A stretch of DNA of 64,000 nt, taken from IMG/VR virus record IMGVR_UViG_3300043313_001192, positions 89,598-153,597 of that record; one strand, 5' to 3'. The stretch is from a virus (lineage: Duplodnaviria > Heunggongvirae > Uroviricota > Caudoviricetes). Positions 18,545 to 48,095 of this stretch are shown in pieces (position 1 is the stretch's first letter; each line of letters opens with the position of its first letter). Both the position numbers and the translations under genes were made by a program. The notes below the pieces were generated by a model. The model saw only the letters and a program-made list of their open reading frames with translations, had not been told where the DNA came from and did not search any database.

Positions 18545-19504
18545 CTACAACTGCTGCTGGACCAGGAACCGCTCCAGCTCTTCCAGCTGATCTTGCGTCT
18601 CGACCCACACCTCCTGGGCGCGTAGACCCGCCATCGCGGCGTACGCCGCGTAGACGCCTGGGTCTGAGAGCGCGGTGATCGCCTCGGCCCAGTGCGTCGG
18701 GCGCTCGGGGTCGCGGAAGAGACCCGCGTAGCTGAGCGACTCCTGCAGACCTGGGGTGGGGCTGGCGATGACCGGGATGTTCGAGGAGGCAGCCTCCACG
18801 CCCACCCGTCCCCAGGACTCATACTTGCTGGGCACCAGCAAGATCCGGGTGCGGGCATAGATCTCTCCGGCCGGGTCGTCGGTGGGCGCGATCACCTCGA
18901 CGTTGCTCGGAACCACCTTCGGAATGCCCTGGTCCCCGTAGCCACCCTGCACGGCCAGGAAGCGGGTCTCGGGCAGCAGTCGGGCCACCTCCCACAGCAG
19001 CTTCCCGTTCTTGAACAGGTTGATCTGGGTCACCAGCGAGTCCTGTCGATGGACGGCGTAGTGGACGGGGCTCACCGGCGGGTAGACCACCTGGCGGGGC
19101 AGCTCTGGCCTGATGCGGGCACACTCCTCACCCAGCCACTGGGAGTTGAAGATGAGCCCGGTGAGAGTCCTGGCCCGCCGCACCACGATCTTGGTCATCC
19201 GCATGTCGTTGTGCAGCACGGACACGATCGGCAGGTCCAGCTTCCGCGCCGCGATCATCGCCACCGAGGTGACGTCGTGATGGGTCAGCAGCACGTCGGC
19301 ACCCTTCGCCGCGTCCACGATGTCAGTGCTGTAGATGTGCGGGATCGAGCTGAGCGGAGGGTCCCCGTCGGTCTCGTCCGGGTGCGGAATGACCACCGCG
19401 ACGGTGTGCCCGCGCTGATCGAGATGGGTGAGTATCGCCTGGAGCATCTGCTCCGAGCCCGCAGGGTCTGTCGTCGGACGGTGCAGGATGGCCGTGATGT
19501 TCAT
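18545..19504 (-). CDS. GT1 (GT4-like) glycosyltransferase
   Basis: 319 aa; C-terminal ...ILLVPSKYESWGRVGVEAASSNIPVIASPTPGLQE matches the GT-B E-X7-E / PVI motif. Confidence 0.65.
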   Translation of the reverse strand: MNITAILHRPTTDPAGSEQMLQAILTHLDQRGHTVAVVIPHPDETDGDPPLSSIPHIYSTDIVDAAKGADVLLTHHDVTSVAMIAARKLDLPIVSVLHNDMRMTKIVVRRARTLTGLIFNSQWLGEECARIRPELPRQVVYPPVSPVHYAVHRQDSLVTQINLFKNGKLLWEVARLLPETRFLAVQGGYGDQGIPKVVPSNVEVIAPTDDPAGEIYARTRILLVPSKYESWGRVGVEAASSNIPVIASPTPGLQESLSYAGLFRDPERPTHWAEAITALSDPGVYAAYAAMAGLRAQEVWVETQDQLEELERFLVQQQL

Positions 19505-19796: not shown

Positions 19797-20276
19797 TTAG
19801 CTAAACACTGCGCCCTTGGGCCGCTCGCGCGGGTTGTCGATGTCGTCCCAGGCCGCGGCGGGCGCCCAGCCATGCCGCTGAGCCGCCTCGATGCTGCGTC
19901 TGCGCATCCCGGTCTCCACCTGGCCACGCAGCTCACCACGCAGCCACCGGCCCCACAGCACCTCGTGAGCCTCCTCGATGCGCTCGGCCGTGCTGCGCAG
20001 CACCAGGTCGCGCCGCATCACCACGCTCACCGCCGCCGGGGTCGCCCAGCCGCACACGTCGGCGATCTCCTCCAGCTTCCAGCCCATCAGCTTCAGCGCC
20101 TGGATCCGCCGCTGAGAGCCGGTCGCGTCGACTCGACGTCGGCCGTCATCGCCGTGGATGGCGATGTCGGACTTCCACTTGCGGTTGTAGGCGTAGATCG
20201 CCTCCCGACAGCAGTCCTCCCGGCAGCCGGTCACCCAGCCCTGTGTCTCCCCATGACGGATCTCGGTCATGTCCAC
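19797..20276 (-). CDS. putative HTH DNA-binding protein with Cys cluster
   Basis: 159 aa; GCREDCCREA Cys cluster; HTH-like ...LEEIADVCGWATPAAVSVVMRR. Confidence 0.35.
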   Translation of the reverse strand: MDMTEIRHGETQGWVTGCREDCCREAIYAYNRKWKSDIAIHGDDGRRRVDATGSQRRIQALKLMGWKLEEIADVCGWATPAAVSVVMRRDLVLRSTAERIEEAHEVLWGRWLRGELRGQVETGMRRRSIEAAQRHGWAPAAAWDDIDNPRERPKGAVFS

Positions 20277-20435: not shown

Positions 20436-22103
20436 TCAGCTCTCCCAGGGCCAGTCCTGCGTGGCCCCCAGCTCGATCTGCGGGATCAGCCCCCAGCTCT
20501 GGTCGGTCAGACCGCCGAAGCTGTGTCGGGTCGGCCCCGACTCACCGTGGGCCGCACGGTAGCCCGCGACGTTCCAGGTGTAGCAGAACACGTCGTCCGG
20601 CAGGAGCGAGTCGATCGACCCACCGAGCCGGTCGTAGGCCGCCTGCTCGTCGGTGACGATGATGACCCGCTTGTGCTCGCCCGCCCGGAAGTGGTCGCGC
20701 ACCGCCTGCATCGTGGCCGTGCCACCCATCGAGACGAACTTGCCCATGTGGTCCAGCACACCCTTCGACCGGTCGACCTTGATCACCGACGAGCCCGTGC
20801 CGTACTGCACCAGCGTCGGGTTCTCGGCCCGCAGCGCCAGCGCCGAGGCGAACAGCGCCGCCTGCTCGTAGGGGAACGTCTTGCCCCGCTCCGAGCCGCC
20901 CCAGGGCCACATCGACCCGGACATGTCGGCCAGGATCAGCGAGCCGCCGTCCAGCACCGGCACGTTCGCCAGCGAGTACTGCAGCCCCGCGCTGAGCGAC
21001 TTCGCCCAGTGGTTGCCCTCGGTGGCCTTGAACGCGGAGTAGAACCGGAACGGGAACTGCCGCGACCGTGCCACCTCGTCGGAGTCGGCCAGCACCGCCT
21101 TGACGTGCTTGACCACGTCGGGAGCGATCTTGGCCTCGTCGAAGTTGCGCAGGTTGCGGAGCAGGGCCATGTAGCCCATCCCGTGCTGGATGAACAGCTT
21201 CCACTGGTCGGCCTCGGACACGCGATCGAACGTGCGGTCCTCGGTGTTCTCACCCAGCCAGGACTTGCCCCACTCCCACTGACCCGCGAGGGCCTGCAGC
21301 CAGCGGAACTCGGCGTCCGGCTCACCGGCGAGCACCTGCCGCACGAACGCGTGCCGCTCAGCGATCGCCAGCTCGTTCAGCGCCAGCCGGTTGGTGATGG
21401 CCTTGAGCATCACCAGGTCCGCCTCGGGGGTCTCCCGACGTGCGTGACGCCGGTCGAGCAGCCAGCCGAACAGCGCCGACTGCTCCGGCCCCTTGGGGGT
21501 CGGGTGGGTCAGCTCGACCACGTCACCCAGACGCATCGCGCCCCGGTTGCCGTCGTAGCGCAGCGCCGCACGCTGGTTGAAGACCTTGCGCGCAGCATCA
21601 GCCACGCCTCGCTTCACCGGCATCGGCAGGTTGCGCCCGTACCGGGTCTGCCAGTAGGCGATGAACTCGCCGGGCTCGTCAGCACGCAGGATCGCTGCCG
21701 AGATCACCTGCCGGTTGAGCCCAGGCGCGAGCGGGGCCGTGAGGCGCTCGCCCTTCTCAGGTGCCTCGGAGACACCGGCGTCCAGGCGGGCCTTGACGAA
21801 CTCGGCCGCGACCAGGATCGAGACCGAGCGCATGTTGGCCTTGGCCCGCAGCCACTCGACGAAGTTGCGCACCCACTGCGGGTCTTCGAGCGTGACCCGC
21901 TTGACCAGCTCGCGAAGTCGATTCTCGCGATCACTGGGGGACTCGTAGAACGTCGGCTCCAGCGTGGTGGACACGGCGCTCAGGTACAGCTCCGCCTGGG
22001 GCTCGCGTGCGAACCCGGTCCCTCCCTCGTGGGTCGCGACCTTCTCGCCCGTGGTGCCGAGCAGTGCTCCCCGGCCCTTCGTGGTGCCTGCGAACTTCGC
22101 CAT
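20436..22103 (-). CDS. rsr: Ro60-like TROVE-domain RNA-binding protein with C-terminal vWA (Rsr-like)
   Basis: 555 aa; N-terminal ...HEGGTGFAREPQAELYLSAVSTTLEPTFYE (Ro60 'GG..F / TFYE' signature); C-terminal vWA with MIDAS LILADMSGSMW (DxSxS); RBS GAGGAG before the ATG at 22103. Confidence 0.75.
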   Translation of the reverse strand: MAKFAGTTKGRGALLGTTGEKVATHEGGTGFAREPQAELYLSAVSTTLEPTFYESPSDRENRLRELVKRVTLEDPQWVRNFVEWLRAKANMRSVSILVAAEFVKARLDAGVSEAPEKGERLTAPLAPGLNRQVISAAILRADEPGEFIAYWQTRYGRNLPMPVKRGVADAARKVFNQRAALRYDGNRGAMRLGDVVELTHPTPKGPEQSALFGWLLDRRHARRETPEADLVMLKAITNRLALNELAIAERHAFVRQVLAGEPDAEFRWLQALAGQWEWGKSWLGENTEDRTFDRVSEADQWKLFIQHGMGYMALLRNLRNFDEAKIAPDVVKHVKAVLADSDEVARSRQFPFRFYSAFKATEGNHWAKSLSAGLQYSLANVPVLDGGSLILADMSGSMWPWGGSERGKTFPYEQAALFASALALRAENPTLVQYGTGSSVIKVDRSKGVLDHMGKFVSMGGTATMQAVRDHFRAGEHKRVIIVTDEQAAYDRLGGSIDSLLPDDVFCYTWNVAGYRAAHGESGPTRHSFGGLTDQSWGLIPQIELGATQDWPWES

Positions 22104-22142
22104 GACTGCTCCTCTCGTTGTCGTGTGTCTTGGCGTGCAAAA

Positions 22143-22218
22143 GGCGGCTGAGTACAGGTATGCAGTGGGGTGGTTTCAGTTTGCAGATGAAGTAACCCAC
22201 CACTTCGCAGCAGCCGCC
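22143..22218 (-). ncRNA. long imperfect hairpin closed by an 8-bp stem and followed by UUUUG (terminator-like or Y-RNA-like stem)
   Basis: Minus strand GGCGGCTG-(60 nt including the inner stem AGTGGTGGGTT.../...AACCACCCCACT)-CAGCCGCC-TTTTG, ending 35 nt upstream of the rsr start codon. Confidence 0.3.
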
Positions 22219-22998
22219 AAAAAGTGAGTGCCGAGAACATGTCGATGCAACTGACGTAGATGCTCTGCCGATTGAGCTACAGCCGCCACGTGGGGCGGCT
22301 GCTGGGACTCGAACCCAGAACCCTCTCCTCCAGATGGAAGTAAGTCGCGTCTTCGCATCGGCACTCAAGATCTTTAGTTGTAGGTGTGCTGAGAACAAAG
22401 CCAGATCACGCAAATCCGCGACCGTCCGGTTATCGAGCCGAGTGTCCACGGGTCATGCGGTGGTTTGGTGCATGAAGGATCGCGATCTTTCGCATCAGCA
22501 CACTGTTCAGTTGTTGTGATAACGAGTGCTGAGAACGTGGTCGAACCAGGACCACGGCGCTCTACCAGCTGAGCTACAGGAACCTTGCGGCCCTGACGGG
22601 ACTCGAACCCGCGACCACCCGATTAACAGTCGAAGGAGCCCGATTCTGCGCAACAGCGCTCGAACTTTGGATGTGCTGAGAACAAGAAGATCCACGAGAT
22701 GTTGCAGCTAACCCCGCTTGCACGGGTGCCACCTCGCCAATGTGGCCTCAGCCGTCCCAGGATGACTAGTCCAGTGACGACCGACAGGAGTCGAACCTGT
22801 GATTTCCGAAGGAACGCGAATCCGCGCATCAGCACATAACACTGTTTAGTTGGTAAGTGCACCGAGAACATGTAGACGCAGGCGTTGGCCCGTTGAAAGG
22901 CCGCGCGAGGGACATTGAACCTCAACGCCTTTTCCGAAGTAACCCGCAGCAATCGCATCGGTGCACACTGTGAAGTTGTCCGAGTAGCGGCCGAGAAC
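22213..22998 (-). repeat. array of 6 non-coding units (130-185 bp), each ending in a conserved GTTCTC(A/G)GCAC box, containing tRNA-like arms
   Basis: Plus-strand gtgc(t/c)gagaac occurs at ~22228, 22386, 22527, 22673, 22857 and 22987, preceded by TTyAGTTG-like sequence. Minus-strand D-arm consensus GTAGCTCAATCGGCAGAGC (22262-22287) and GTAGCTCAGCTGGTAGAGC (22559-22584). T-arm-like GGTTCGAGTCC / GGTTCGACTCC / GGTTCAATGTCC at 22303-22319, 22596-22612, 22786-22802 and 22906-22922. No full cloverleaf could be folded by eye. Confidence 0.5.
22587..22634 (-). ncRNA. tRNA-like 3' portion (GTT anticodon-like stem-loop + T-arm + acceptor-like strand) abutting a 5' acceptor + D-arm segment
   Basis: Minus: TTCGA-CTGTTAA-TCGGG (7-nt loop, U33, GUU, A37), TGGTC, GCGGG-TTCGAGT-CCCGT, CAGGGCC-G, immediately followed by GGTTCCTG-TAGCTCAGCTGGTAGAGC. 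No matching 5' acceptor lies upstream, so either a permuted/split tRNA, a degenerate tRNA or a Y-RNA-like tRNA mimic. Confidence 0.3.
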
Positions 22999-23375
22999 CC
23001 AGAGGCGCCGGTGCAGGAGCTGTTCGCTGAATGAAGGATCCCGCGTGGCTTCGCAACGGCCACCGTTGCTCAGGAGGACGACACTACACAGCCTGCACAG
23101 CCACGTCACCTGGTTTACCGAGAAGTTTCCAGGTTGGGGAGTCTAGACATGCCAGCACGGAGTTGACACGATGGTGGGCAACGCCGCCGTCCCGGTTACC
23201 CCCCGTACCTGGGCGGCGGCGTCTCCACGCTCAGGGGTCGGTGAAGAGCCGGACATTTACCGCGACCACGTCGCGCCAGCTCTGCACGCAGCTGCACTCG
23301 CTGCAGCCGTCATCAGCGTGGTAGGGGCTGGTGTGCCCGCACCACGGGCACCTCATCGAGTGGAACGGCAGGGAG

Positions 23376-29073: not shown

Positions 29074-29351
29074 AGATCGACCTGACCAGGGGTGGCGTGG
29101 ATCAGTGCCTGACCCTCACTGTCGTAGGCACACGCAGTGGCTGACCCGCAGACCGGGCAGGTGGTCTGCAGCGTCTGGACCAGGTCGTCCAGCTGGGCCT
29201 GGTCGTACTGGTCGGCGATGTCGACCGGGTCCGGGGCCAAGCCCAGATTCCGGTTCACCTGCGCCCAGAAGTCGTCGTCGTTCAGTCTTCGACGAGTGCC
29301 TGTCTCCGAACACTCGGCGAGCCAGCCTGCGTGTGCGAATGGAGCGGTCAT
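29070..29351 (-). CDS. small Cys-containing protein (93 aa)
   Basis: Start MTAPFAHAGWLAECSETGTRRRLNDDDFW...TTCPVCGSATACAYDSEG (ATGA overlap at 29348-29351). The upstream part of ORF 29070..29837 is run-on. Confidence 0.35.
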   Translation of the reverse strand: MTAPFAHAGWLAECSETGTRRRLNDDDFWAQVNRNLGLAPDPVDIADQYDQAQLDDLVQTLQTTCPVCGSATACAYDSEGQALIHATPGQVDL

Positions 29352-30172
29352 GACGGTCTCCCCAACCCCCAATGCGCCACGTGCGCGTCGACGGAGAACT
29401 CTCCGATCCTGCCCCAGTCCGCATGGTCGGGCAACGGGGTGCCGTTCTCCAGGATCTGCTGGGTGGTCTGGGTCAACCCGAGGATGACTCGGGAGACCTC
29501 CTCGCGCGGGACCTCCCCGCGCTTGACCGCCAGCACGTGCTCGCGCGGTGTCTCCGGCAGCGGCAGGCTCAGTCGTCCCAGCAAGCAGATCTCGTAGCCC
29601 TGGTAGGCCAGGCGGAGAGCGTGCGCGGCGAACTTGACGTCGAAGCCGTACTTCTCGACCAGCTCCGGCCGATTGGGCACATTGCCCCGCTTGCCGCGCC
29701 CCATCATCCGCTCGTGCTGGGCGAACATGTAGCCCAGGAACCGATCGACCGCGGCCTTGGACATGAACGCCTCGCGCATCCCGCGCAGGATCTCCCCGGT
29801 CTCGGTGATCTCCAGCACCGACTCCTCCGGGCACCACAGCGGCAGCTGCGCGGTGGGGTTGCCGACCGCGGCCAGCCGCAGGTACTTGCGCAGCGAGTAG
29901 AGGTTCAGGTCCAGGTCGCCGGGCTGGGAGCGCTCCCCCTCCGGCTGGGTCCGGTAGACCGCGACGTCCATCGGCTCGCCCATCCCGACGACGCTCTCGA
30001 CCGGCTCGATGAAGATGCCCATCTCATCGCGGTCGTCGAAGCCCTCGATCGCGATCCCGTGCACCCCGGAGCCGACCACGGTGCGCAGGATCAAGTTGGC
30101 CTGGGCCGTCTTGACGTTCCCGTAGGAGACGTTGGGGCGCTCTTCCTCGACCTCAGTCACCGAACACCTCAA
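29348..30172 (-). CDS. putative nucleotidyltransferase-fold protein (tentative)
   Basis: 274 aa; GSGVHGIAIEGFDDRDEMGIF resembles the G[SG]-x9-13-D.[DE] Pol-beta-type NTase motif; helical C-terminal half. Confidence 0.4.
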   Translation of the reverse strand: MRCSVTEVEEERPNVSYGNVKTAQANLILRTVVGSGVHGIAIEGFDDRDEMGIFIEPVESVVGMGEPMDVAVYRTQPEGERSQPGDLDLNLYSLRKYLRLAAVGNPTAQLPLWCPEESVLEITETGEILRGMREAFMSKAAVDRFLGYMFAQHERMMGRGKRGNVPNRPELVEKYGFDVKFAAHALRLAYQGYEICLLGRLSLPLPETPREHVLAVKRGEVPREEVSRVILGLTQTTQQILENGTPLPDHADWGRIGEFSVDAHVAHWGLGRPS

Positions 30173-35827: not shown

Positions 35828-36916
35828 CTAGGTGATCCCACCCTCCGCTGTAGAGGGGTGCGTGGTCACCTTGTCACCCTTGATCGTGACCTCGATCGAG
35901 GCGGTGTTGTTGTACTCGTTCGACTCCACGACGGCTCTACGTGCGTCGGCGTGCACGGTCACCTTGTAGTCCCCGTCAGGCAGGTCCGTGACGTCGATGG
36001 CCTGGTCCGGCAGTGTGGACGGGTAGGTGTCTCCCCACCCTCGACTCAGGCCGTGGATGATGGTCAGCGCGTGAGGGAGCCCCTTGCCGCACGACGTCGT
36101 CTCCAGGTACACCGGCGCCTTCGGGACGCCCTCCTGGCCCTGCATCGACATCTCGCCGGTGTTGTCCTGCATGCAGTAGCCGTGCTTCTCGGCCCTGGCC
36201 TTGACGTCGGTGTCCTGCACCCCGGTGATCTCATAGTTGTCGAAATCACGCACGTGCCAGTGGTTGTGGCCATCCCCGGCGAAGTAGAACTCCACGCCCT
36301 TGTCGACCACCGAGCCGAGCCGTTTGCCGGTGGCGTCGAAGAACGTCTGGTACGCCTTCCAGTCCTTGACGTCCGCCGCCGAACGGTCCGCGAGGATCTC
36401 GGCAGGCTGCTTGCCGACGTTCAGGGTGATCACCGGGAACTTCAGCAGCTTGCGTCCCCTGAGCTTGGGGAAGTCCTCCACGTACGGCGCGGGGTTCACG
36501 ATCTTGAAGCAGTCGCCACCGGTGGCCTTCAGGTCGCCGGTACCGCACTGATCGAGCTGCTTGATCACCAGGTCGGGCAGCGCTGCGTTCTGGGGTTGCT
36601 CGGTGAGGATGTTCAGGCAGTCATCGGCATCAGCGGGCCGGGTGGTGACACCCTGACTAGCCCACGTGCTCCAGTGCTTGACCCACTTGTCAGCGCCCTT
36701 GTCCCAGGACCAGGAGGCGGTGCGGACCATGGTGCGGATCGGCACGCTGAGCTGCTGGCAGTACGGCTTGCCGATGTCTTGGGAGGTGTGCTGGACATCG
36801 GCCTTGGGTTTGTCCGGACGGCCTTGTCCGCACGCGCCCGCCACCAGCAGGCTCGCGACCACGACGATGAGTAGGAATCTCACCCGAGTTGGTTGCACAT
36901 CTACACATTCCCACAA
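35828..36916 (-). CDS. lipoprotein with lysyl-oxidase-like (LOX) catalytic domain
   Basis: Signal/lipobox ...FLLIVVVASLLVAGAC. LOX landmarks: LLKFPV..N.G; GDGHNHWHVRDFDNYE (cf. LOX WHSCHQHYHSMDEFSHYD); AEKHGYCMQDNT (cf. AEGHKASFCLEDT); SRGWGDTYP..PDQAIDVTDLPDGDYKVTVH....VVESNEYNN (cf. [23 protein letters not shown]....VPESDYTNN). Confidence 0.6.
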   Translation of the reverse strand: MWECVDVQPTRVRFLLIVVVASLLVAGACGQGRPDKPKADVQHTSQDIGKPYCQQLSVPIRTMVRTASWSWDKGADKWVKHWSTWASQGVTTRPADADDCLNILTEQPQNAALPDLVIKQLDQCGTGDLKATGGDCFKIVNPAPYVEDFPKLRGRKLLKFPVITLNVGKQPAEILADRSAADVKDWKAYQTFFDATGKRLGSVVDKGVEFYFAGDGHNHWHVRDFDNYEITGVQDTDVKARAEKHGYCMQDNTGEMSMQGQEGVPKAPVYLETTSCGKGLPHALTIIHGLSRGWGDTYPSTLPDQAIDVTDLPDGDYKVTVHADARRAVVESNEYNNTASIEVTIKGDKVTTHPSTAEGGIT

Positions 36917-36938
36917 CTAGCTGTGAACAGAACATGAG

Positions 36939-37034
36939 CTGGCCCAGAAGGAGTCGAACCTTCATCTTCCCCCTGAACAAGGAGGTGCTCTACCGTGGGT
37001 GCTCTGGACAGAGCGCCACTTGAGCTACAGGCCA
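36939..37034 (-). tRNA. non-canonical tRNA-like gene (GUU anticodon-like loop; ~22-nt hairpin insertion in the D-loop)
   Basis: Minus: TGGCCTG-TA-GCTC-AAGTGG[CGCTCTGTCCAGAGCACCCACG]TA-GAGC-A-CCTCC-TTGTTCA-GGGGG-AAGAT-GAAGG-TTCGACT-CCTTC-TGGGCCA-G. Acceptor pairs 7/7 (2 G-U); perfect T-arm; no encoded CCA; position 37 is C. Confidence 0.35.
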
Positions 37035-37100
37035 TGGGCACTGACGGGGCCGTACAACGCTGGGGGGCAGTCGTTCGACCCCGTCAGTGGTCTAGAGGAG

Positions 37101-38555
37101 TCAGTCCAGACCTCCGGCTGCAGTACCGGGGTAGGGCGTGACCGTGTTGCCCGTGATGTTGATCTTCATGGAGGCGACGTTGTTGTCCTCGTTGGACTCC
37201 GTCACCGCGCCGACGTCATCAGCGTGGATCTGGGCGGTGTAGTCCCCGTCCGGGAGCCCGGTGATGTCCACTGCCTGGTCCGGCAGCGACGTGGGGTAGG
37301 TGTCGCCCCATCCCCTGCTGAGTCCATGGATGATGGTCAGCGCGTTCGGCAGGCCCTTCCCGCACGAGGTGGTCTCCAGGTAGACCGGCGCTGTCGGAAC
37401 ACCCGCCTGACCCTGCAGCTGGCGGTAGGAGGTGTTGTCCTGCAGGCAGTACCCGTGCTTCTCCGCGCGGGCCACCACCTCGCCGGTGCTGTCCAGCAGC
37501 TGGTAGGAGTCGAAGTCCTGTACGTGCCAGTGGTTGTGACCATCCCTGGCGTAGTAGAACTTCACCTTGGGCTCGTAGACCGACTGGGTGGACCCGTCAG
37601 GACGGTAAAACGTCTGGTACGCCTTCCAGTCGTTTGGTGAGTCCGCGGAGCGGTCAGCGATGATCTCTGAGGGTCCAGCACCCACGTTGAGCCCGATCAC
37701 CGGGAACTTGAGCAGCTTCTTGCCCTCCAGGGCAGGGAAGTCATCGTTGAGTGGAGCCGACGGGTCGATCAGGAAGCACTTCCCGTCGGTCGCGAGCATG
37801 TCACCGGTCCCGCACTTGTCCAGGCTCTTGACCCGGATGTCGGGGAGCAGAGCATCAGCCGGTGGGGTGTCCACGACGTTCATGCAGTCGGCCGCCGCAG
37901 CAGCCCGAGGTTCTCCCTGGCTCACCGTCGTCCAGGCTGAGGGCTCCGCGGGGACCCACTTCTTCGCGGTGGTGCTCCAGACCCAGCCCTGGGTCCGCTG
38001 CTGGTTCGCCGTGGTGACGATCAGCTGGTTGCACTGCGCCTGGTCGTCGACGACCTGGGTCTGGATCAGGTCAGCGGGCTTCGCGCACGTCGTGGGGCTC
38101 GGGTTGCTCGCGCACGTCGCCGACTGCGGTGGCGTCCGGCTGATCACCCGCAGCGCGATCTGCCGCGATCTGCCGCGCAGGTGGCCCTTGGCGTAGACCA
38201 GGGTGCGGAACCGGGCGATGCCGGGCTTGCTGACCCGCTGGCTGGGCATTGTGTACTTGCCGAGCGCTCGCCGGTACCTGGTGCTCCGGTTGATCCAGCG
38301 GTGCCCGTTCCAGCGCTGCAGGACGATCCGCTTCTGGACGTGGCTGTTGTTCCCGCTGAGGTAGCCCACGATCGGGATGGCCGCGTTGACGTACCGGCTG
38401 CCCACCGAGTTCAAGGAGATGGCCAACCGCACCGGCTGGGTGCGGTAGGCCGCTCCTCCACTGCCCGAGCGCGCCTCAGCAGGCGTGAGGCTCAGCCCCA
38501 TGCTTGCGACCAGCGCGACCAGCAGTCCCAGCACTGCTACTGCTCGTGTCTTCAT
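37101..38555 (-). CDS. secreted protein with lysyl-oxidase-like catalytic domain (paralogue of 35828..36916)
   Basis: Signal peptide MKTRAVAVLGLLVALVASMGLSLTPAEA. C-terminal 250 aa ~60% identical to the neighbour, including LLKFPVIGLN, ARDGHNHWHVQDFDSYQ, AEKHGYCLQDNT, SRGWGDTYPTSLPDQAVDITGLPDGDY and VTESNEDNNVAS. Confidence 0.6.
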   Translation of the reverse strand: MKTRAVAVLGLLVALVASMGLSLTPAEARSGSGGAAYRTQPVRLAISLNSVGSRYVNAAIPIVGYLSGNNSHVQKRIVLQRWNGHRWINRSTRYRRALGKYTMPSQRVSKPGIARFRTLVYAKGHLRGRSRQIALRVISRTPPQSATCASNPSPTTCAKPADLIQTQVVDDQAQCNQLIVTTANQQRTQGWVWSTTAKKWVPAEPSAWTTVSQGEPRAAAAADCMNVVDTPPADALLPDIRVKSLDKCGTGDMLATDGKCFLIDPSAPLNDDFPALEGKKLLKFPVIGLNVGAGPSEIIADRSADSPNDWKAYQTFYRPDGSTQSVYEPKVKFYYARDGHNHWHVQDFDSYQLLDSTGEVVARAEKHGYCLQDNTSYRQLQGQAGVPTAPVYLETTSCGKGLPNALTIIHGLSRGWGDTYPTSLPDQAVDITGLPDGDYTAQIHADDVGAVTESNEDNNVASMKINITGNTVTPYPGTAAGGLD

Positions 38556-38571
38556 GTCGTGTCCGTCTCTA

Positions 38572-39300
38572 CTAGTTGATGGTTCGGTTCGCTGATGCGG
38601 CGTAGATGGAGTCCACCTGCTCTGGGGTGAGTTCGCGGTCGAAGAACGCCACGTTGCGCACGGTCCCGATCAGTGACCCAGCGTTGTCGCCGAGTCCCCC
38701 GATGCGGACCGCGCTGGGTGTGTTCTTGGGCTTGATCCGGAAGCTGGACAGCGGGTCGTCATCGCGCTTCACGCCGTTCTTCCAGATGGCGATCTGGCTC
38801 CGGTCCACCTCGCCGACGATGAGCCGCTCGGTCGTGGCCTGGCGGTCCTGGAAGTAGGAGCCAGCGCCCAGCCCACCCTGGGGGTTGAAGTAGTAGAACG
38901 ACGTGCGACCTTGGCGCTCGGCCGCTTCGCCGGGCGCGTCCTGCACGTAGTGCCGAAACACCCACTCGTGCCAGTTGCCCTTGCCCTTGCCCAGCCAGTG
39001 CACGTACTGCGTCGACTCGGGATCTGAGCCGTGCCAGTCCTTGATCGTCAGGAGCGCCACCACCGTCAGCTTCCCGGTCGTGGTCACCGAGAAGTCGTCG
39101 TTGTCGGGGATCCGGATGTAGCTGTGCCCGTCGAAGACCGCACCCTGGTCGGTGAACTCGGCGCCGTGGTTGGTGCCGTCGTCGTTGCCGATGACATCGT
39201 CCGAGCCGGTCACCTGGTTGAGTGGGTAGAAGTGGGTCAGCCCAGGGATCTTGAAGATCACCCTGCCCGCCTGATCCAGCTTCTCAGTGTCTGTCTGCAC
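38572..39300 (-). CDS. LamG/concanavalin-A-like lectin/glucanase-fold protein
   Basis: 242 aa; paralogue of the N-terminal 240 aa of 42549..43712 (shared IPGLTH.Y.L, FSV.T.G.LTV...T...[29 protein letters not shown](F/W)(D/N)R.LT..(Q/E)..SIYAA). Confidence 0.5.
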   Translation of the reverse strand: MQTDTEKLDQAGRVIFKIPGLTHFYPLNQVTGSDDVIGNDDGTNHGAEFTDQGAVFDGHSYIRIPDNDDFSVTTTGKLTVVALLTIKDWHGSDPESTQYVHWLGKGKGNWHEWVFRHYVQDAPGEAAERQGRTSFYYFNPQGGLGAGSYFQDRQATTERLIVGEVDRSQIAIWKNGVKRDDDPLSSFRIKPKNTPSAVRIGGLGDNAGSLIGTVRNVAFFDRELTPEQVDSIYAASANRTIN

Positions 39301-41568: not shown

Positions 41569-42552
41569 CTAGAGCAAACCCTTCTTGATCAGCGCGTCGA
41601 CCATCGCGTTGTGCTTCGCCACGATGCTCCTCGTGGTCGCGTGGTAGTCAGCACCCGGCGTGGGCTCGGGCGTGGGCTTCGGAGTGGGTGTGGGAGTGGG
41701 CTCGGGCTTGGGCTCCGGCGTCGGTGTGGGAGTGGGCTCGATCGCGCCAGTCGGGCTGATCTCACGCACGCTGGCCTTCTTGTAGATCAGGCCGTCCGTC
41801 GCCACGTCGTCGGAACGGAAGTAGACGGTGATGTTCGGCTTCCCGGACTCCGAGCCGCTCCGGGTCCCGCTCTTGGTCAGCTTCATCTTCGGGTCGATGC
41901 CGCTCTTGCAGGCGGTCACTCCGAGCTTGGTGCCGTCGTCCTCAAGCTCGGTGATCTTCTCCCAGGTGCCACCGTCCTTGCCGTCGGTCATGTCTCGGTA
42001 GATCTCGATCTTGACGTTGCCGTTCGAGAGGTCGTAGGTCAGCATCTTGAAGCCGATCCAGATGTTCCTCGCCAGACCTCCCGACCACACGGTCTTGCGG
42101 TACTGCCACGGGGCGTCGGAGGCAGGGTGGTTGGTCTCCTTCTCGATGTCCACGTCGCCGTCGTACCTGAAGCGGCCGTTGATGCTGCGGGTGTCGCACT
42201 TGTTGGTGTTCTCCGAGCCGATGGTCCCGTGGTTGGCCCTGGTGCAGCACACCAGACCGCCCCACGGCGTCCCGGCGTCGTTGACCCGCTTGAAGTAGAC
42301 CGTCACCTCGACGTCGGTCCATTGCCGCTGCTTCGCCGGGTCATGCACGTACATCCGCGGCACCGCGCCCGAGATGAACAGCTGCCCGTCGGCCACGCGG
42401 TAGCTCGCGTCGCCGTGGTCGCAGTTGAACCAGGGGTCCTTGGGGTCGGTGCCGGTGAACGTGCGTGGCGTGACCCAGTTCGCCTCCCACTTCATGCCGC
42501 CTGGGAGGTCGGCGTAGAGCTTGGTGGTCCCAAAGGTGTCGACGGCGCTCAC
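41569..42552 (-). CDS. beta-jelly-roll-like protein, possible glycan hydrolase/lyase (tentative)
   Basis: GTG start in a GTGA overlap with the upstream stop ([22 protein letters not shown]...). Beta-rich core; PT-rich linker; C-terminal [27 protein letters not shown] shared with 42549..43712. The first ~90 codons of ORF 41569..42819 are run-on. Confidence 0.4.
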
Positions 42553-43712
42553 AGGACACCGTCCTCGGTGAGTTTGTCCACGACGAGATTGTGCTTCTCG
42601 ACGACGTTGTCGGCGGTGGCGTGATAGTCGGTGTCTGGCGTTGGTTCGACGCCGCCGGTGAGCGTGACGCTCGTGCCCACCTTGGCGTAGTTGATGAGCC
42701 AGGTACGCGCTGCTCCGTGCCCGGAGAGGACGTAGCCACCCGCTGGGATGGTCGCGTTTCCCTTGGCGTCGACCAGTGCGGTGACCTTGCCACCCACCAC
42801 CGTGGCTTCGGCACCCCACTGGTTGGTGCCGGTGGTCGCGCCGGTCTTGGAGGTGTACTCGATCAGCTGGTCGGTCTGGCGCCCGACGTCCACACCGTCG
42901 AGCGTGTGGGCGGTCGAGCCGATGCGCACGTGGTCCTCGGTGGGGGTCGGTTCTGGGGTCGGAGTCGGGGTAGGTGCCGGATCCGGTGTCGTGGTCGGGG
43001 GCGTCGTGGATGCCCCGCCGTCCGCTTCGTTGCGTGCCGCGTAGATCGACTTGATCTCGGTGTCGGTGAGCACCCGGTTCCAGAACGCCACCCGGCGTAG
43101 CTTGCCGACCAGGAATCCGGTGGCCAGGTCCTTGCTGCCCAGCCGGACCGGCTGGGTGGTGTTCTGCGGCTTGATCGAGTAGCCCGAGAGCAGATCGGAG
43201 TCACGCTTGACCCCGTCCTTGAAGATCTGGGTCTGCTTGAGGTCACAGGTCCCGACCACGACACGCTCCTGGCCCGTGGGGTCGTCGTCCTGGAAGTAGG
43301 AGCCAGCGCCCAGACCACCTGAGTAGTTGAAGTGGTAGAACGACGTCCGCTTCGGCCGCGACGGCGCCTCGCCGGTGCCCCCCGGATAGACGTAGTGCCG
43401 GAAGCACCACTCCGCCGGGGTACCGTTCGCGGCCTTGCCCATCCAGTTGACGTACTCGCTGGCGTGCGCGCCCTTCCAGCTGTCCAGGGTCATGAAGACC
43501 AGGACCGTCAGCCCACCCTTGGTGGCCACCGAGAAGTCGTCGTGGTCCGACAGCTCGATGTAGGAGTCTCCGGTGAAGACGGCCCCCTTCGAGCCGAAGG
43601 TGCAGCCGTGATTCTTGCCGTCGATGTTGCCCACCGAGTCGCTGGCGTCCTTGGTCAGGTCGTAGTAGTGGGTGAGACCTGGCATCTTCGAGATCACATC
43701 GAGAAACGTCAT
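42549..43712 (-). CDS. LamG-like domain protein with shared C-terminal module
   Basis: 387 aa; N-terminal 240 aa paralogous to 38572..39300; PT-rich linker; C-terminal ...[30 protein letters not shown]...[28 protein letters not shown]. Confidence 0.5.
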
Positions 43713-43758
43713 CAGCGCACCCTAAACCTACCGTCGGAGGTGCCTTGACGTTACCACT

Positions 43759-45090: not shown

Positions 45091-46099
45091 AGCGATCCCC
45101 CCTGGTGGCGATGCGGTAGGTGAACACGAACGTCAGTGCGATGGTGATGCCCAGCAGCATGATCAGGGTCTGGTTCACCCGGATCGCCCCGATGGTGACC
45201 GCGGACTGTGCCGAGTCCGGTGTCTTGACGGATGTGTCGCCTGCCGTGGCTGCACTTCCGTAGTGCTGGACGTTGCCGTCCGAGGGCAGCAGCTTGCCGC
45301 CGACGACGTTGGCAACGGTGGCCACCGTAGTGGACGTCGGGCGCTTGGAGAGCCAGTCCACGAACGCGATGAAGGTGTCCAGCGAGATCGAGTTGTCCGA
45401 GGGCGTGTCGACCTTGGAGCAGTTGGTGTCACAGATCCGGTGGAACACCAACGGGACCCAGCCGCCGTGGTCGTCCTCGGCCTGGGTGACGTACTTCCTC
45501 AGGTCGGCCAGCGTCGTGCTGGGACGTGCTGTGGTCGGCGTCCGGATGGCCCACTGGTCCTTGGCTGGGATCGTCTCAGCAGTGGGGCAGTCCAGATCGC
45601 AGCCGTAGCTGGACGAGCGCAGGCCGGGCAGTGCGCGAGCGCTGTTGTAGCCACAGTCACGGGCGACCTTCTTCACCTCGCTGTTCGTCGAGCCGAGCGG
45701 GTAGGCGAAGTCGCTGACCCGGAATCCCATGCTGAGCAGGGTGGCCCGGTCGTCACAGATCTCGTGACGCATCTTGCTCGGTGACAGGGTGGTCAGGTCG
45801 GGGTGGTCGAGCGTGTGCCCGCCGATCTCGAAGCCCGCGGCCTGGTACTTCTTGAGCTGTGCACGGGTCAGGTAGTCGACGTCCTTGCTGATGCGCGGGC
45901 TGTTGACGTACACGGTGCCGGTCATGTCGTAGTTCTTCAGCACGTCCAGCGCGAGCTTCTGGGTGGCGAGCGTGTCGTCGAAGGTGAAGCTGACGATCGT
46001 GGGCTCCGGCTCCGAGGACGCTGCCGTTGCCGAGAGGGTGAACGGTCCGAGCGTCAACAGCACCATCATGCCGAGTAGCAGGAGAGAGAAGCGCTTCAC
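45062..46099 (-). CDS. membrane-anchored NodB-family polysaccharide deacetylase
   Basis: Signal/TM MKRFSLLLLGMMVLLTLGPF...; NodB motifs FTFDDT, TGTVYVNSPRI, GFEIGGHTLDHPDL; C-terminal TM LIMLLGITIALTFVFTY. Confidence 0.7.
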   Translation of the reverse strand: MKRFSLLLLGMMVLLTLGPFTLSATAASSEPEPTIVSFTFDDTLATQKLALDVLKNYDMTGTVYVNSPRISKDVDYLTRAQLKKYQAAGFEIGGHTLDHPDLTTLSPSKMRHEICDDRATLLSMGFRVSDFAYPLGSTNSEVKKVARDCGYNSARALPGLRSSSYGCDLDCPTAETIPAKDQWAIRTPTTARPSTTLADLRKYVTQAEDDHGGWVPLVFHRICDTNCSKVDTPSDNSISLDTFIAFVDWLSKRPTSTTVATVANVVGGKLLPSDGNVQHYGSAATAGDTSVKTPDSAQSAVTIGAIRVNQTLIMLLGITIALTFVFTYRIATRGDRYVQRRQHRA

Positions 46100-48065: not shown

Positions 48066-48095
48066 CCTTCCTGGTGTCGTTGTGTCATTGCGTCG

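What the first reader, a model, noticed from the sequence alone, without database searches (positions are those of the whole stretch)
20436..23110. Ro60/TROVE-vWA (Rsr-like) gene preceded by a 1-kb array of tRNA-like / Y-RNA-like modules
The 555-aa protein has the Ro60 N-terminal signature (EGG..F...TFYE) and a C-terminal vWA with DxSxS MIDAS. Bacterial Rsr proteins bind Y RNAs that contain a tRNA-mimicking module and are encoded next to rsr, and in phages within tRNA clusters. Immediately upstream, on the same strand, lies ~1 kb of non-coding DNA made of ~6 units. The units carry canonical D-arm sequences (GTAGCTCAGCTGGTAGAGC; GTAGCTCAATCGGCAGAGC), T-arm-like hairpins (GGTTCGAGTCC, GGTTCGACTCC), one anticodon-like loop (CUGUUAA) and acceptor-like stems. 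None of them folds by eye into a complete cloverleaf. In two units a T-arm + 3' acceptor segment directly abuts a 5' acceptor + D-arm segment. In one case the 8-nt acceptor strands (CAGCCGCC / GGCGGCTG) are perfectly complementary across a 6-nt linker, the arrangement expected for a permuted or split tRNA, or for a Y-RNA tRNA-like domain. The array ends in a long hairpin + UUUUG, 35 nt before the rsr RBS.
Basis: partly seen in the sequence, partly recalled or inferred. Interest (0 to 1): 0.75.

Follow-up and report, generated by a model that had tools for sequence, protein, structure and literature searches.

The report
Phage Ro60 gene with seven Y RNAs
A bacteriophage genome carries a Ro60-type RNA-binding protein gene preceded by a conserved tandem array of seven small Y-RNA genes, two of them tRNA mimics; this is a known kind of system, here in an unusually large and tidy form.

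Summary
The minus-strand gene 20436-22103 encodes a Ro60/Rsr protein. It passes the Pfam TROVE cut-off, aligns over most of its length (residues 19-226 and 296-546) to the solved Thermus phage phiLo Ro60, and has a complete MIDAS motif (D393-x-S-x-S397, T462, D485). The 1 kb upstream holds seven tandem units, not six, and is not a tRNA cluster. Each unit is closed by the same bulged helix: 5' N8-N-U-GCG paired with 3' UGU-UC-U-N8. That helix covaries across 47 units from eight related phage loci. Units Y4 and Y6 carry the circularly permuted tRNA-like core of YrlA RNAs (T arm, closed acceptor stem, D arm). They give significant but sub-threshold Rfam YrlA hits, many compensatory changes, and covariation of the 15:48 Levitt pair. 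The "long hairpin" next to rsr is the seventh unit. ARAGORN's tRNA-Asn call is a pseudo-cloverleaf built from Y4. Relatives with 58-93% Rsr identity keep arrays of 5-8 units in conserved class order, behind one conserved promoter-like block. Phage Ro60 with adjacent Y RNAs is already published, but with only two RNAs per locus. Chromosomal Streptomyces loci carry about 2-4 units. I rate this a new, expanded member of a known kind, of moderate interest.

The parts
20436..22103 (-). rsr: Ro60 ortholog, 555 aa (TROVE HEAT-repeat ring plus C-terminal vWA domain with MIDAS D393-x-S395-x-S397, T462, D485)
   Evidence: ORF. Pfam TROVE E 6.9e-12, 45.7 bits against cut-off 23. phrog_850 'RNA-binding protein' E 1.3e-39 over residues 20-493. 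Aligns to Thermus phage phiLo Ro60 (PDB 9l5y/9kop) E 1.3e-19 over residues 19-226 and 296-546, with DMSGS/DVSGS, GGT and TDE aligned. The MIDAS residues are invariant in 20 homologs.
22109..22116 (-). Shine-Dalgarno-like GAGAGGAG, 5 nt upstream of the rsr ATG
   Evidence: Read directly from the sequence. An equivalent AGGAG/GGAAAG is present in the relatives.
22143..22218 (-). Y7 (class eta): short 76-nt Y RNA-like hairpin, 5' GGCGGCUG-CU-GCGAAG ... UGU-AC-UCAGCCGCC 3', followed by UUUUG. Possible weak terminator or autoregulatory site in the rsr leader
   Evidence: RNAfold. Orthologs in 7 loci give a consensus fold of 19 pairs, 6 of them compensatory. Always the last unit and always followed by 2-4 U. 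nhmmer hit.
22226..22366 (-). Y6 (class zeta): YrlA-type Y RNA. Order: Ro-type helix, helix 2, small hairpin, T arm (CUGGGUUCGAGUCCCAG), closed 8-bp acceptor stem (CAGCCGCC/GGCGGCUG; the loop reads C-CCA-CGU after the 7th pair), UA, D arm (GCUCAAUCGGCAGAGC)
   Evidence: Rfam YrlA 33.4 bits, E 3.9e-5, model positions 23-86. Eight orthologs give 41 pairs, 17 compensatory, including the acceptor stem. A15:U48 changes to G15:C48 in step (A2 columns 100 and 51).
22384..22503 (-). Y5 (class epsilon): 120-nt Y RNA-like unit with a three-hairpin distal module and no tRNA-like arms
   Evidence: RNFold structure from RNAfold. Consensus fold with 2 orthologs gives 36 pairs, 3 compensatory. nhmmer hit E 2e-5.
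22524..22661 (-). Y4 (class delta): YrlA-type Y RNA that also keeps an anticodon-arm-like hairpin (5 bp, loop CUGUUAA) and a 5-nt variable loop (UGGUC) before the T arm. These are followed by a closed acceptor stem and a D arm (GCUCAGCUGGUAGAGC). Source of the ARAGORN 'tRNA-Asn' call
   Evidence: Rfam YrlA 40.7 bits, E 3e-7. Six orthologs give 39 pairs, 15 compensatory. The loop 'anticodon' is not conserved among orthologs (GUU, ACU, UGU, AGU). ARAGORN call; tRNA model below cut-off.
22671..22837 (-). Y3 (class gamma): 167-nt Y RNA-like unit with a lone T-arm-like hairpin (CAGGUUCGACUCCUG) and further hairpins. Resembles M. smegmatis YrlB in having a T arm only
   Evidence: RNAfold. Consensus fold of 5 sequences gives 36 pairs, 17 compensatory. 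The YrlB probe sequence in PMC4201824 reads GACUUCAAGGUUCGACU as sense RNA.
22857..22966 (-). Y2 (class beta): 110-nt Y RNA-like unit with a conserved hairpin GAGGUUCAAUGUCCCUC and a second hairpin
   Evidence: RNAfold. Eight orthologs give 32 pairs, 13 compensatory.
22986..23064 (-). Y1 (class alpha): short 79-nt Y RNA-like unit, 5' GGUGGCCG-UU-GCGAAGCCA ... GGU-UC-UCGGCCGC 3'. Always first in the array
   Evidence: RNAfold. Six orthologs give 20 pairs, 8 compensatory.
23080..23123 (-). Conserved promoter-like block: invariant TGTGTAGTGTC (23080-23090; a TAGTGT -10-like hexamer about 15 nt before Y1) and, upstream of it, TTCTCGGTAAACCAGGTGACG
   Evidence: Alignment of 6 loci. The block occurs once in the window. 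It is not picked up by the sigma-70 consensus scan, so promoter function is inferred.
23178..23225 (-). GC-rich hairpin (GACGCCGCCG ... CGGCGGCGU) after the upstream 41-aa ORF. Probable terminator or boundary of the upstream SLT operon
   Evidence: Read from the sequence. Only weak chance-level Rfam matches (6C, mir-8791).

Best explanation
This is the Ro60 (Rsr) locus of a tailed actinobacteriophage. The rsr gene is preceded, on the same strand, by an operon-like array of seven distinct Y RNA genes.

Anatomy of the units. Each RNA pairs its 5' and 3' ends into a conserved bulged helix. That helix has 8-9 freely covarying base pairs, then a one-nucleotide 5' bulge (U) opposite a two-nucleotide 3' bulge (UC), then G.U/C-G/G.U formed by GCG and UGU. 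A second helix and a conserved YUACUUC element follow. I take this module to be the Ro60-binding platform, the counterpart of the GGUCCGA / GNCGAA bulged helix of animal and bacterial Y RNAs.

The distal modules differ between units:
- Two are YrlA-type tRNA mimics (Y4, Y6).
- Two carry lone T-arm-like hairpins (Y2, Y3).
- Three are other hairpin sets (Y1, Y5, Y7).

Proposed mechanism. The array is transcribed from the single conserved promoter-like block upstream of Y1, probably reading through into rsr. The precursor is cut in the short A-rich, G-poor spacers (consensus about CAACURAAYA). RNase P may additionally cut at the 7-8-bp acceptor stem of Y6. Each mature Y RNA then docks on the outer face of the Ro60 ring and uses its distal module to tether the ring to a different partner. 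Candidate partners are host PNPase or other exoribonucleases, and tRNA-elbow-binding enzymes for Y4 and Y6. The outcome would be redirection or damping of host RNA decay and repair during infection.

Shown here: protein family membership; the seven units and their shared helix; covariation; the tRNA-like cores; conservation of array and order in relatives; the conserved upstream block.

Inferred: transcription as one unit; processing sites; Ro60 binding; partner identity; biological role.
For: Protein. TROVE passes the Pfam cut-off. The protein aligns over residues 19-226 and 296-546 to the solved phage Ro60, with MIDAS aligned, and those residues are invariant in homologs.

Phage context. Tape measure protein, DNA polymerase, endolysin and minor tail protein are present, and nearly all genes lie on one strand.

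The units.
- Seven A/B motif pairs alternate.
- All seven fold with the same closing helix.
- The nhmmer profile gives 7 hits in the window, all in the array.

Helix covariation. Across 47 units from 8 loci, 93.8% of cells are paired, against 75% in shuffles and 26-53% in slid registers. Seven of 12 pairs show double changes. In a non-circular test, the outer 4 bp lying outside the motifs are fully paired in 27 of 45 cognate pairs against 12.7% of non-cognate pairs.

tRNA-like cores.
- YrlA hits E 3e-7 and 3.9e-5 in the window.
- In 48 kb of relatives, all 13 hits at E<=0.05 are YrlA, all lie in the upstream gap, and there are two per locus except one.
- Consensus folds have 17/41 and 15/39 compensatory pairs.
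- The 15:48 Levitt pair covaries in 13 of 14 sequences.

Other classes. Compensatory pairs are also found in classes alpha, beta, gamma, eta and epsilon.

Conservation. A gene-free gap of 700-1280 nt with 5-8 units is present in every relative whose upstream DNA was available. A promoter-like block is conserved in 6 loci. Spacers are 38% A and 12% G, against 18% A and 30% G in the units.

Precedent. Y RNAs are encoded next to rsr on the same strand in 254 bacteria and 22 phages (PMC4201824). Thermus phage phiLo Ro60 binds two upstream Y-like RNAs and host PNPase (PMC12135203).
Against: - No expression, end-mapping or binding data exist for this phage or its relatives.
- The Rfam YrlA hits (40.7 and 33.4 bits) are far below the family's gathering score of 69, and they cover only model positions 23-86.
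- The published 5'-strand motif GNCGAAN0-1G is matched only loosely: GCGAA(N0-1)G in Y1, Y5, Y6 and Y7, but GCGAUU, GCGCGG and GCGCAG in Y2, Y3 and Y4.
- No sigma-70-type promoter or canonical intrinsic terminator was found by the consensus scan.
- The units used for the main covariation count were selected partly by complementarity, which inflates that count. addresses this only partly.
- No PNPase or RNA ligase gene is present in the window, so the partners are unknown.
Confidence: 0.85

Rival explanations
1. The region is an ordinary, or decayed, phage tRNA gene cluster. The units would be tRNAs or tRNA pseudogenes, as in the tRNA clusters that flank Ro-like genes in Streptomyces phage BRock and Arthrobacter phage Atuin.
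For: ARAGORN calls tRNA-Asn(GUU) at 22587-22660. Canonical D-arm and T-arm sequences are present. In BRock and Atuin the Ro-like gene sits inside a real tRNA cluster. Part of Y4 is 82.7% identical to a true tRNA-Asn/tRNA-Pro junction in Vibrio phage RYC.
Against: Only one borderline call is made in 1 kb. The Rfam tRNA model scores it 28.8 bits (cut-off 29), against 42-74 bits for true phage tRNAs. The arm order is T arm, acceptor, D arm, which is permuted. ARAGORN 'anticodons' on orthologous units are inconsistent: Asn-GUU, Ser-ACU, Leu-CAG, Arg-UCU. Covariation supports the Y-type fold, with ends paired and acceptor stem closed. Five of the seven units have no D arm at all.
Confidence: 0.03
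2. The array is a purely cis-acting structured leader of the rsr mRNA. It would be a series of attenuator or stability hairpins, possibly titrating Ro60 for autoregulation, rather than a set of trans-acting Y RNAs.
For: The array lies directly upstream of rsr on the same strand, with one conserved promoter-like block. Y7 ends 39 nt before the ATG and is followed by a short U run in all relatives. No internal promoters were found.
Against: Seven structurally distinct classes are kept in conserved order, with compensatory changes in their distal modules. Conserved A-rich single-stranded spacers look like cleavage sites. Homologous units in M. smegmatis, Salmonella and phage phiLo are discrete Ro60-bound RNAs (PMC4201824, PMC12135203). 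The two ideas are not exclusive for Y7.
Confidence: 0.06
3. The tRNA-like units act mainly without Ro60. They would be decoys or spare parts against host tRNA-targeting defences such as anticodon nucleases, with Ro60 and the RlaP nucleotidyltransferase forming a phage RNA-repair kit.
For: Y4-class units keep a full anticodon-arm mimic with a 7-nt CUNNNAA loop. Y6 has a 7-8-bp acceptor stem, the feature that makes M. smegmatis YrlA an RNase P substrate (PMC4201824), and an encoded CCA after the discriminator position. The phage encodes an RlaP-family RNA-repair nucleotidyltransferase at 29348-30172 (PMC12776372). TROVE proteins are listed among phage RNA-repair components (PMC7824862).
Against: The 'anticodon' is not conserved among orthologs, and the encoded CCA is found only in the three closest sequences. 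Every unit, tRNA-like or not, keeps the Ro-type helix, which argues that Ro60 binding is the common function. No RNA ligase was found in the window.
Confidence: 0.1

Closest known systems
YrlA / YrlB Y RNAs with Rsr in Salmonella Typhimurium and Mycobacterium smegmatis (Chen et al. 2014, PMC4201824; Rfam RF02553; structure in bioRxiv 10.1101/312249)
   Same: The RNAs are encoded just 5' of rsr on the same strand. The 5' and 3' ends pair into a Ro-binding module with a CGAA-type motif. The YrlA core is T arm, closed acceptor stem, UA, D arm in permuted order, with the YUAY element and the 15:48 pair. A second RNA has only a T arm (YrlB, like Y3). The M. smegmatis YrlA probe sequence shows the same UUAC plus anticodon-like hairpin as Y4.
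   Different: There are seven RNAs instead of two, and two YrlA-type units per array. Both strands of the closing helix are conserved here (UGCG and UGUUCUC), whereas only the 5' strand was recognisable in Salmonella and M. smegmatis. Scores fall below the Rfam gathering threshold. The host is a phage, not a chromosome.
Thermus phage phiLo Ro60 with Yrl1 and Yrl2 (PMC12135203; PDB 9l5y, 9kop)
   Same: A phage-encoded Ro60 with Y-like RNAs directly upstream. It is the best PDB sequence match to this protein (E 1.3e-19), with MIDAS aligned. The RNAs have a stem-bulge-stem with a CGAA motif.
   Different: phiLo has two Y-like RNAs and no reported tRNA-like module. The hosts (Thermus versus a high-GC actinobacterium) and the protein sequences are far apart.
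Deinococcus radiodurans Rsr-Yrn1-PNPase (RYPER) machine
   Same: The working model used here comes from this system: the Y RNA's closing helix binds Ro60 and its distal module tethers an effector (PNPase). More than one Y RNA is encoded upstream of rsr (Yrn1, Yrn2).
   Different: No PNPase link is shown here. The Yrn1 tRNA-like part has a different arm order. The RNAs are fewer.
Unannotated Y-like units next to Ro-like genes of isolated actinophages (Streptomyces phage BRock, Gordonia phage VanLee) and of Streptomyces chromosomes
   Same: The 5' signature (UGCG ... GGUUACUUC) and the YrlA-type cores are the same. BRock has 4 units and VanLee at least 4. Streptomyces and Actinocatenispora loci have about 2-4.
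   Different: Arrays are smaller. In BRock the 3' strand motif differs (UCGCUUUUUCUAG) and the units follow a real tRNA cluster. Rsr identity is only 36-45%.
Animal Y RNAs (four in human) and nematode stem-bulge RNAs
   Same: A family of several paralogous small RNAs shares one Ro60-binding bulged helix and differs in its loops.
   Different: Those are Pol III genes dispersed or clustered in eukaryotic genomes, with no tRNA-like module and a different helix sequence (GGUCCGA / bulged C).
Circularly permuted tRNA genes (Cyanidioschyzon merolae and some archaea)
   Same: The 3' half precedes the 5' half, and the acceptor stem starts out closed by a loop.
   Different: Those are processed into functional tRNAs through a circular intermediate. 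Here the break is extended into a Ro-type helix and nothing indicates maturation into a decoding tRNA.

Membership tests
Ro60 / Rsr (TROVE + vWA) | TROVE (HEAT-repeat ring) domain recognised by PF05731 above the curated cut-off | tested here: met
   45.7 bits against cut-off 23, E 6.9e-12. phrog_850 covers residues 20-493.
Ro60 / Rsr (TROVE + vWA) | C-terminal von Willebrand A domain with MIDAS (DxSxS ... T ... D) | tested here: met
   D393-M-S395-G-S397, T462 and D485 align to DVSGS, GGT and TDE of solved phiLo Ro60 and are invariant in 20 homologs.
Ro60 / Rsr (TROVE + vWA) | Closed ring fold with a central cavity and an outer Y-RNA-binding surface | not tested
   No structure prediction was run. 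Supported only by sequence alignment to PDB 9l5y/9kop over residues 19-226 and 296-546.
Y RNA (Ro60-associated ncRNA, general) | 5' and 3' ends pair into a long helix with conserved bulges (stem-bulge-stem) | tested here: met
   All 7 units. Across 47 units, 93.8% of cells are paired and 7 of 12 pairs show double changes. Non-circular test.
Y RNA (Ro60-associated ncRNA, general) | Encoded close to the Ro60 gene on the same strand (bacterial and phage Y RNAs: within 4 kb) | tested here: met
   The units lie 39-960 nt upstream of rsr on the same strand. The same holds in 8 relatives.
Y RNA (Ro60-associated ncRNA, general) | Conserved 5'-strand Ro-contact motif (GGUCCGA in animals; GNCGAAN0-1G or 'CGAA' in bacteria and phages) | tested here: inconclusive
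   UGCG is invariant in all 47 units. Full GCGAA(N0-1)G is present in Y1, Y5, Y6 and Y7 only; Y2, Y3 and Y4 have GCGAUU, GCGCGG and GCGCAG.
Y RNA (Ro60-associated ncRNA, general) | Physically bound and stabilised by Ro60 | not testable with these tools
   Needs RIP or EMSA.
YrlA (Rfam RF02553) | Score at or above the Rfam gathering threshold (69 bits) | tested here: not met
   40.7 and 33.4 bits (E 3e-7, 3.9e-5). None of 17 actinobacterial chromosomal rsr loci (Streptomyces, Kitasatospora, Microtetraspora, Actinocatenispora) reached it either, so the threshold appears too strict for this phylum.
YrlA (Rfam RF02553) | Permuted tRNA-like core: T stem-loop, closed acceptor-like stem, UA, D stem-loop, flanked by a stem leading to the Ro-binding helix | tested here: met
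   Met for Y4 and Y6. Model positions 23-86 align. Consensus folds have 15-17 compensatory pairs, including the acceptor stem.
YrlA (Rfam RF02553) | tRNA tertiary-interaction nucleotides kept, including a covarying 15:48 Levitt pair (G15:C48 or A15:U48) | tested here: met
   Y4 has G15/C48 and Y6 has A15/U48. 13 of 14 orthologs are consistent (A2 columns 100/51, A3 columns 108/49). GG in the D loop and UUCGAGU in the T loop are present.
Canonical tRNA | Cloverleaf with open acceptor ends, scoring above the Rfam tRNA cut-off, with the anticodon conserved among orthologs | tested here: not met
   28.8 bits, below 29. Ends are paired in a Y-type helix. ARAGORN anticodons are inconsistent among orthologs.

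The most novel reading that the evidence does not exclude
The array would be a seven-member adaptor library, letting one phage Ro60 ring be tethered to several different host or phage enzymes. Within it, the Y4-class unit is a complete circularly permuted tRNA (anticodon arm, variable loop, T arm, closed acceptor stem, D arm). RNase P and the phage RlaP nucleotidyltransferase would process it into a CCA-ended tRNA surrogate or a decoy that defeats host anticodon-nuclease defences. That would make the Ro60/Y RNA system a phage counter-defence module rather than an RNA quality-control device.
Probability: 0.12. Interest if true: 0.8.

Novelty: new member of a known kind. Interest (0 to 1): 0.42.

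Why it matters
Ro60 and Y RNAs are conserved from bacteria to humans. In prokaryotes only a handful of Y RNAs have been studied, at most two per organism in the papers I could read. How the distal module chooses the effector is still open.

This phage clade offers seven structurally distinct Y RNAs that share one clearly defined protein-binding helix. The units are kept in the same order across relatives with 58-93% Rsr identity, and the compensatory changes are abundant.

That provides four things:
- A clean consensus for the actinobacterial and phage Ro-binding site, on both strands.
- A natural panel for asking which module recruits which partner.
- A near-intact example for the proposed dimeric-tRNA origin of YrlA. 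Y4 still has the anticodon arm of 'tRNA 1', and ARAGORN folds its 5' half as a cloverleaf.
- A practical annotation warning. tRNA finders mis-call these units, and at least one GenBank phage record (VanLee tRNA-Arg) appears to carry such a call.

None of this changes the known concept. It extends it.

Tried and rejected
- Rfam at gathering thresholds on the whole window found nothing. The YrlA signal appears only in E-value mode.
- Megablast of 24 kb of the window against isolated phages found nothing, so the phage has no close cultured relative.
- The sigma-70 promoter and terminator scan found no promoter and only one internal terminator-like site, inside Y5. The promoter proposal therefore rests on conservation.
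- One-mismatch motif scans over the whole window were too noisy to use. They were replaced by exact counts and an nhmmer profile.
- Three relatives (L004, L007, L014) and P0008's contig gave no upstream DNA, because the contig ended at the array or the file was too large.
- Two reviews (PMC6047535, PMC10870794) and the supplement of Chen 2014 were not available. I therefore could not check whether larger Y RNA sets have been tabulated.
- The gene just downstream of rsr (19797-20276) has a weak PHROG match labelled 'RNase E'. It has no Pfam hit even at E<=5 and by eye looks like a Cys-rich helix-turn-helix protein, though no domain search confirmed this. I do not treat it as a nuclease partner.
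- I considered CRISPR-like, REP-like or attP-type repeats. I rejected them because the units differ in length and content, are found only at this locus, and each class is conserved with compensatory changes.
- The clade-specific 5' profile does not detect Streptomyces chromosomal units. Their count of 2-4 rests on a cruder regular expression and on reading three loci by eye.

Full report
**1. What is there**

On the minus strand, ORF 20436-22103 encodes a 555-aa protein. Upstream of it, from about 23064 down to 22143, lies about 1 kb with no credible coding frame.

The window as a whole is a tailed-phage genome segment. Nearly all genes are on the minus strand. It contains a 1980-aa tape measure protein, a minor tail protein, an endolysin, a family A DNA polymerase and an exonuclease. 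It has no close cultured relative: megablast found nothing.

**2. The protein is a Ro60/Rsr ortholog**

- Pfam TROVE scores 45.7 bits against a cut-off of 23.
- PHROG 850 ('RNA-binding protein') covers residues 20-493.
- The best solved relative is the Ro60 of Thermus phage phiLo (PDB 9l5y/9kop, E 1.3e-19). It aligns over residues 19-226 and 296-546.
- The MIDAS elements DMSGS, GGT and TDE align to DVSGS, GGT and TDE of that structure.
- D393, S395, S397, T462 and D485 are invariant in an alignment of 20 homologs.
- Isolated actinophages annotate the homolog as 'Ro-like RNA binding protein'. The closest is Gordonia phage VanLee at 42% identity.

**3. The upstream kilobase is an array of seven units, not six**

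Two short motifs alternate strictly seven times on the minus strand. They are 5' GYYG(A/U/C)UGCG and 3' GU(U/A)CUCRG.

All six minus-strand exact copies of GTTCTCRG in the 64-kb window lie inside the array.

RNAfold closes each A-to-B interval with the same helix. It has 8-9 bp, then a single bulged U on the 5' strand, then GCG pairing with UGU (G.U, C-G, G.U), with a 2-nt bulge (UC) on the 3' strand. A second helix follows, and then a conserved (U/A)U(A/C)CUUC element. That element matches the 'YUAY' that begins the variable region in published YrlA RNAs (PMC4201824).

The unit coordinates are:

| Unit | Coordinates (minus strand) |
|---|---|
| Y1 | 22986-23064 |
| Y2 | 22857-22966 |
| Y3 | 22671-22837 |
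| Y4 | 22524-22661 |
| Y5 | 22384-22503 |
| Y6 | 22226-22366 |
| Y7 | 22143-22218 |

A profile HMM of the 5' segments hits the window exactly seven times at E<=1, all in the array. In about 600 kb of fetched loci it hits almost nowhere outside such arrays.

**4. Comparative evidence**

The large protein database holds a clade of metagenomic Rsr homologs at 57-93% identity. I retrieved DNA for eight loci. Every one that includes upstream sequence has a gene-free gap of 700-1280 nt before the TROVE gene. They also share the window's synteny: SLT transglycosylase, a roughly 42-aa ORF, the gap, TROVE, then in most loci a glycosyltransferase and an SNF2 helicase.

Each gap contains 5-8 units with the same closing helix.

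On 47 mini-constructs of the helix:
- 93.8% of cells are standard pairs, against 75% in column shuffles and 26-53% in slid registers.
- 7 of 12 pairs show changes on both sides.
- UGCG, the G of UGU and the C of the UC bulge are invariant.

These units were picked partly by complementarity, so I repeated the test with anchors defined by sequence motif only. The four outermost base pairs, which lie outside both motifs, are all paired in 27 of 45 cognate pairs against 12.7% of non-cognate combinations.

**5. Unit classes**

The units fall into orthologous classes that keep their order across loci.

| Class | Unit in window | Description | Consensus fold (pairs, compensatory) |
|---|---|---|---|
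| alpha | Y1 | short, always first | 20 pairs, 8 |
| beta | Y2 | hairpin GGAGGUUCAAUGUCCCUC | 32 pairs, 13 |
| gamma | Y3 | lone T arm CAGGUUCGACUCCUG | 36 pairs, 17 |
| delta | Y4 | YrlA-type | 39 pairs, 15 |
| epsilon | Y5 | three-hairpin distal module | 36 pairs, 3 |
| zeta | Y6 | YrlA-type | 41 pairs, 17 |
| eta | Y7 | short, always last | 19 pairs, 6 |

Some relatives carry further classes. One example is a third tRNA-like unit in L010.

**6. The two tRNA-like units are YrlA-type**

Rfam's YrlA model matches Y4 (40.7 bits, E 3e-7) and Y6 (33.4 bits, E 3.9e-5) over model positions 23-86. That span is T arm, closed acceptor stem, UA, D arm.

In 48 kb of relatives, all 13 Rfam hits with E<=0.05 are YrlA. 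All lie in the upstream gap on the gene's strand, two per locus except one.

These scores are below the gathering score of 69. However, none of 17 actinobacterial chromosomal rsr loci reached it either. I therefore read the shortfall as model bias, not as evidence against homology.

The acceptor stem covaries freely: CAGCCGCC/GGCGGCUG, CGUCCGCC/GGCGGACG, CAGUCGAC/GUCGGCUG, CUCCCC/GGGGAG.

The tertiary Levitt pair also covaries. A15 goes with U48 and G15 with C48 in 13 of 14 sequences. This is the signature reported for YrlA RNAs.

**7. Why ARAGORN sees a tRNA**

Y4-class units keep, before the T arm, a 5-bp hairpin with a 7-nt loop CUNNNAA and a 5-nt UGGUC 'variable loop'. That is the geometry of tRNA positions 27-48.

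[quoted passage not shown] The tRNA model scores it 28.8 bits (cut-off 29), against 42-74 bits for real phage tRNAs.

On orthologs the called 'anticodons' are inconsistent: Asn-GUU, Ser-ACU, Leu-CAG, Arg-UCU, Lys-CUU.

The GenBank 'tRNA-Arg(tct)' of phage VanLee is such a unit.

**8. How it probably works**

*Shown:* the anatomy described above. In addition, a strongly conserved block lies just upstream of Y1 in six loci. It includes invariant TGTGTAGTGTC, with a TAGTGT -10-like hexamer about 15 nt before Y1. The block occurs once in the window. Spacers between units are 7-24 nt and A-rich, G-poor (38% A and 12% G, against 18% A and 30% G in the units). They carry a recurrent CAACURAAYA. Y7 is followed by 2-4 U and a leader of about 35 nt with an RBS.

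*Inferred:*
- One promoter drives the array, with read-through into rsr.
- Endonucleolytic cleavage in the spacers releases the units. RNase P may additionally cut at Y6's 7-8-bp acceptor stem, by analogy with M. smegmatis YrlA.
- The shared helix binds the Ro60 ring.
- The seven different distal modules tether it to different partners.

Two published cases serve as precedents. In D. radiodurans and Salmonella, Y RNA tethers Rsr to PNPase. In phage phiLo, Ro60 binds two upstream Y-like RNAs and forms a ternary complex with host PNPase that lowers its activity.

An RlaP-family RNA-repair nucleotidyltransferase lies at 29348-30172 (PMC12776372). This hints that the phage invests in RNA end-repair. 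No RNA ligase was found.

**9. How novel**

Phage Ro60 genes with adjacent Y RNAs are published: 22 phages in Chen et al. 2014, and phiLo in 2025. YrlA/YrlB-type pairs are known in M. smegmatis. The probe sequences in that paper even show that its YrlA has the Y4-type UUAC plus anticodon-like hairpin, and that its YrlB has a Y3-type T arm.

I also found unannotated multi-unit sets in BRock (4 units) and VanLee (at least 4). About 2-4 units sit upstream of chromosomal Streptomyces and Actinocatenispora rsr genes, with the same UGCG...UACUUC...UGUUC signature.

What is new here is a matter of degree and clarity:
- Seven units, and up to eight in relatives.
- Seven structural classes in conserved order.
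- Both helix strands conserved.
- A near-complete 'first tRNA' preserved in Y4. This fits the dimeric-tRNA origin model quoted. In line with it, Y4's core is 82.7% identical to a true tRNA-Asn/tRNA-Pro junction in Vibrio phage RYC.

I could not read the two main reviews, so larger sets may already have been noted.

**Verdict:** a new, expanded member of a known kind, of moderate interest.

Noticed in passing
window 36940-37034 (-): A tRNA-Asn(GUU)-like cloverleaf with a 7-bp acceptor stem and a 21-nt insertion that forms its own hairpin inside the D loop. It has C at position 37 and no encoded CCA. ARAGORN calls a shifted 74-nt version, and the Rfam tRNA model scores 23.8 bits, below its cut-off. 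It sits between two genes with lysyl-oxidase domains. It has no Y-type closing helix.
   Followed up: partly
window 29348-30172 (-): An RlaP-family (PF10127) RNA-repair nucleotidyltransferase (E 1.4e-24; phrog_388), about 7 kb upstream of rsr on the same strand. No RNA ligase was found beside it, although RlaP genes usually accompany one.
   Followed up: partly
L001 3171-3242 (Gordonia phage VanLee NC_073474.1 65454-65525): The record's only tRNA in this region, tRNA-Arg(tct), lies inside a Y4-type Y RNA unit next to the Ro-like gene. It does not reach the Rfam tRNA cut-off, so it is probably a mis-annotation. ARAGORN makes similar pseudo-tRNA calls on units in L009, L010, L013 and L034.
   Followed up: partly
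L002 2920-3500 (Streptomyces phage BRock KX925554.1): The 580-nt unannotated gap between a true tRNA-Asn and the Ro-like gene holds four Y-like units, two of them YrlA-type. Their 3' strand motif differs (UCGCUUUUUCUAG).
   Followed up: partly
L015, L029, L034 and about 75 other actinobacterial chromosomal loci (L015-L094): Chromosomal rsr genes of Streptomyces and relatives are preceded by about 2-4 Y-like units with the same UGCG...YUACUUC...UGUUC signature. None reaches the Rfam YrlA gathering score, which suggests the Rfam model under-detects actinobacterial YrlA.
   Followed up: partly
window 22557-22631 (-) versus L095 2501-2580 (Vibrio phage RYC): The T-arm/acceptor/D-arm stretch of Y4 is 82.7% identical to the junction of two adjacent true tRNA genes (tRNA-Asn 3' part, 5-nt spacer, tRNA-Pro 5' part). 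This is consistent with the proposed origin of YrlA from a dimeric tRNA transcript.
   Followed up: partly
L004, L007, L014 (contig ends): Three metagenomic contigs of relatives end exactly at the start of the TROVE gene. The repetitive Y array probably breaks short-read assemblies.
   Followed up: no
window 23231-23356 (-) and 23178-23225 (-): A conserved 41-aa Cys-rich ORF (CPWC...C..C.C), also present as a 42-43-aa gene in relatives. It is followed by a GC-rich hairpin without a U tract, just upstream of the array's promoter-like block.
   Followed up: no
window 42549-48095 (-), 18545-19504 (-): The phage carries several cell-envelope or sugar-metabolism genes: UDP-glucose dehydrogenase, polysaccharide deacetylase, a WbqC-like protein, a GT4 glycosyltransferase, and two lysyl-oxidase-domain proteins at 35828-38669.
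   Followed up: no
window 22291-22299 (-) within Y6: After the 7-nt 3' acceptor strand, Y6 reads C-CCA, that is, a discriminator followed by an encoded CCA, before the loop closes. This is shared only with the two or three closest relatives (L013, L012).
   Followed up: partly
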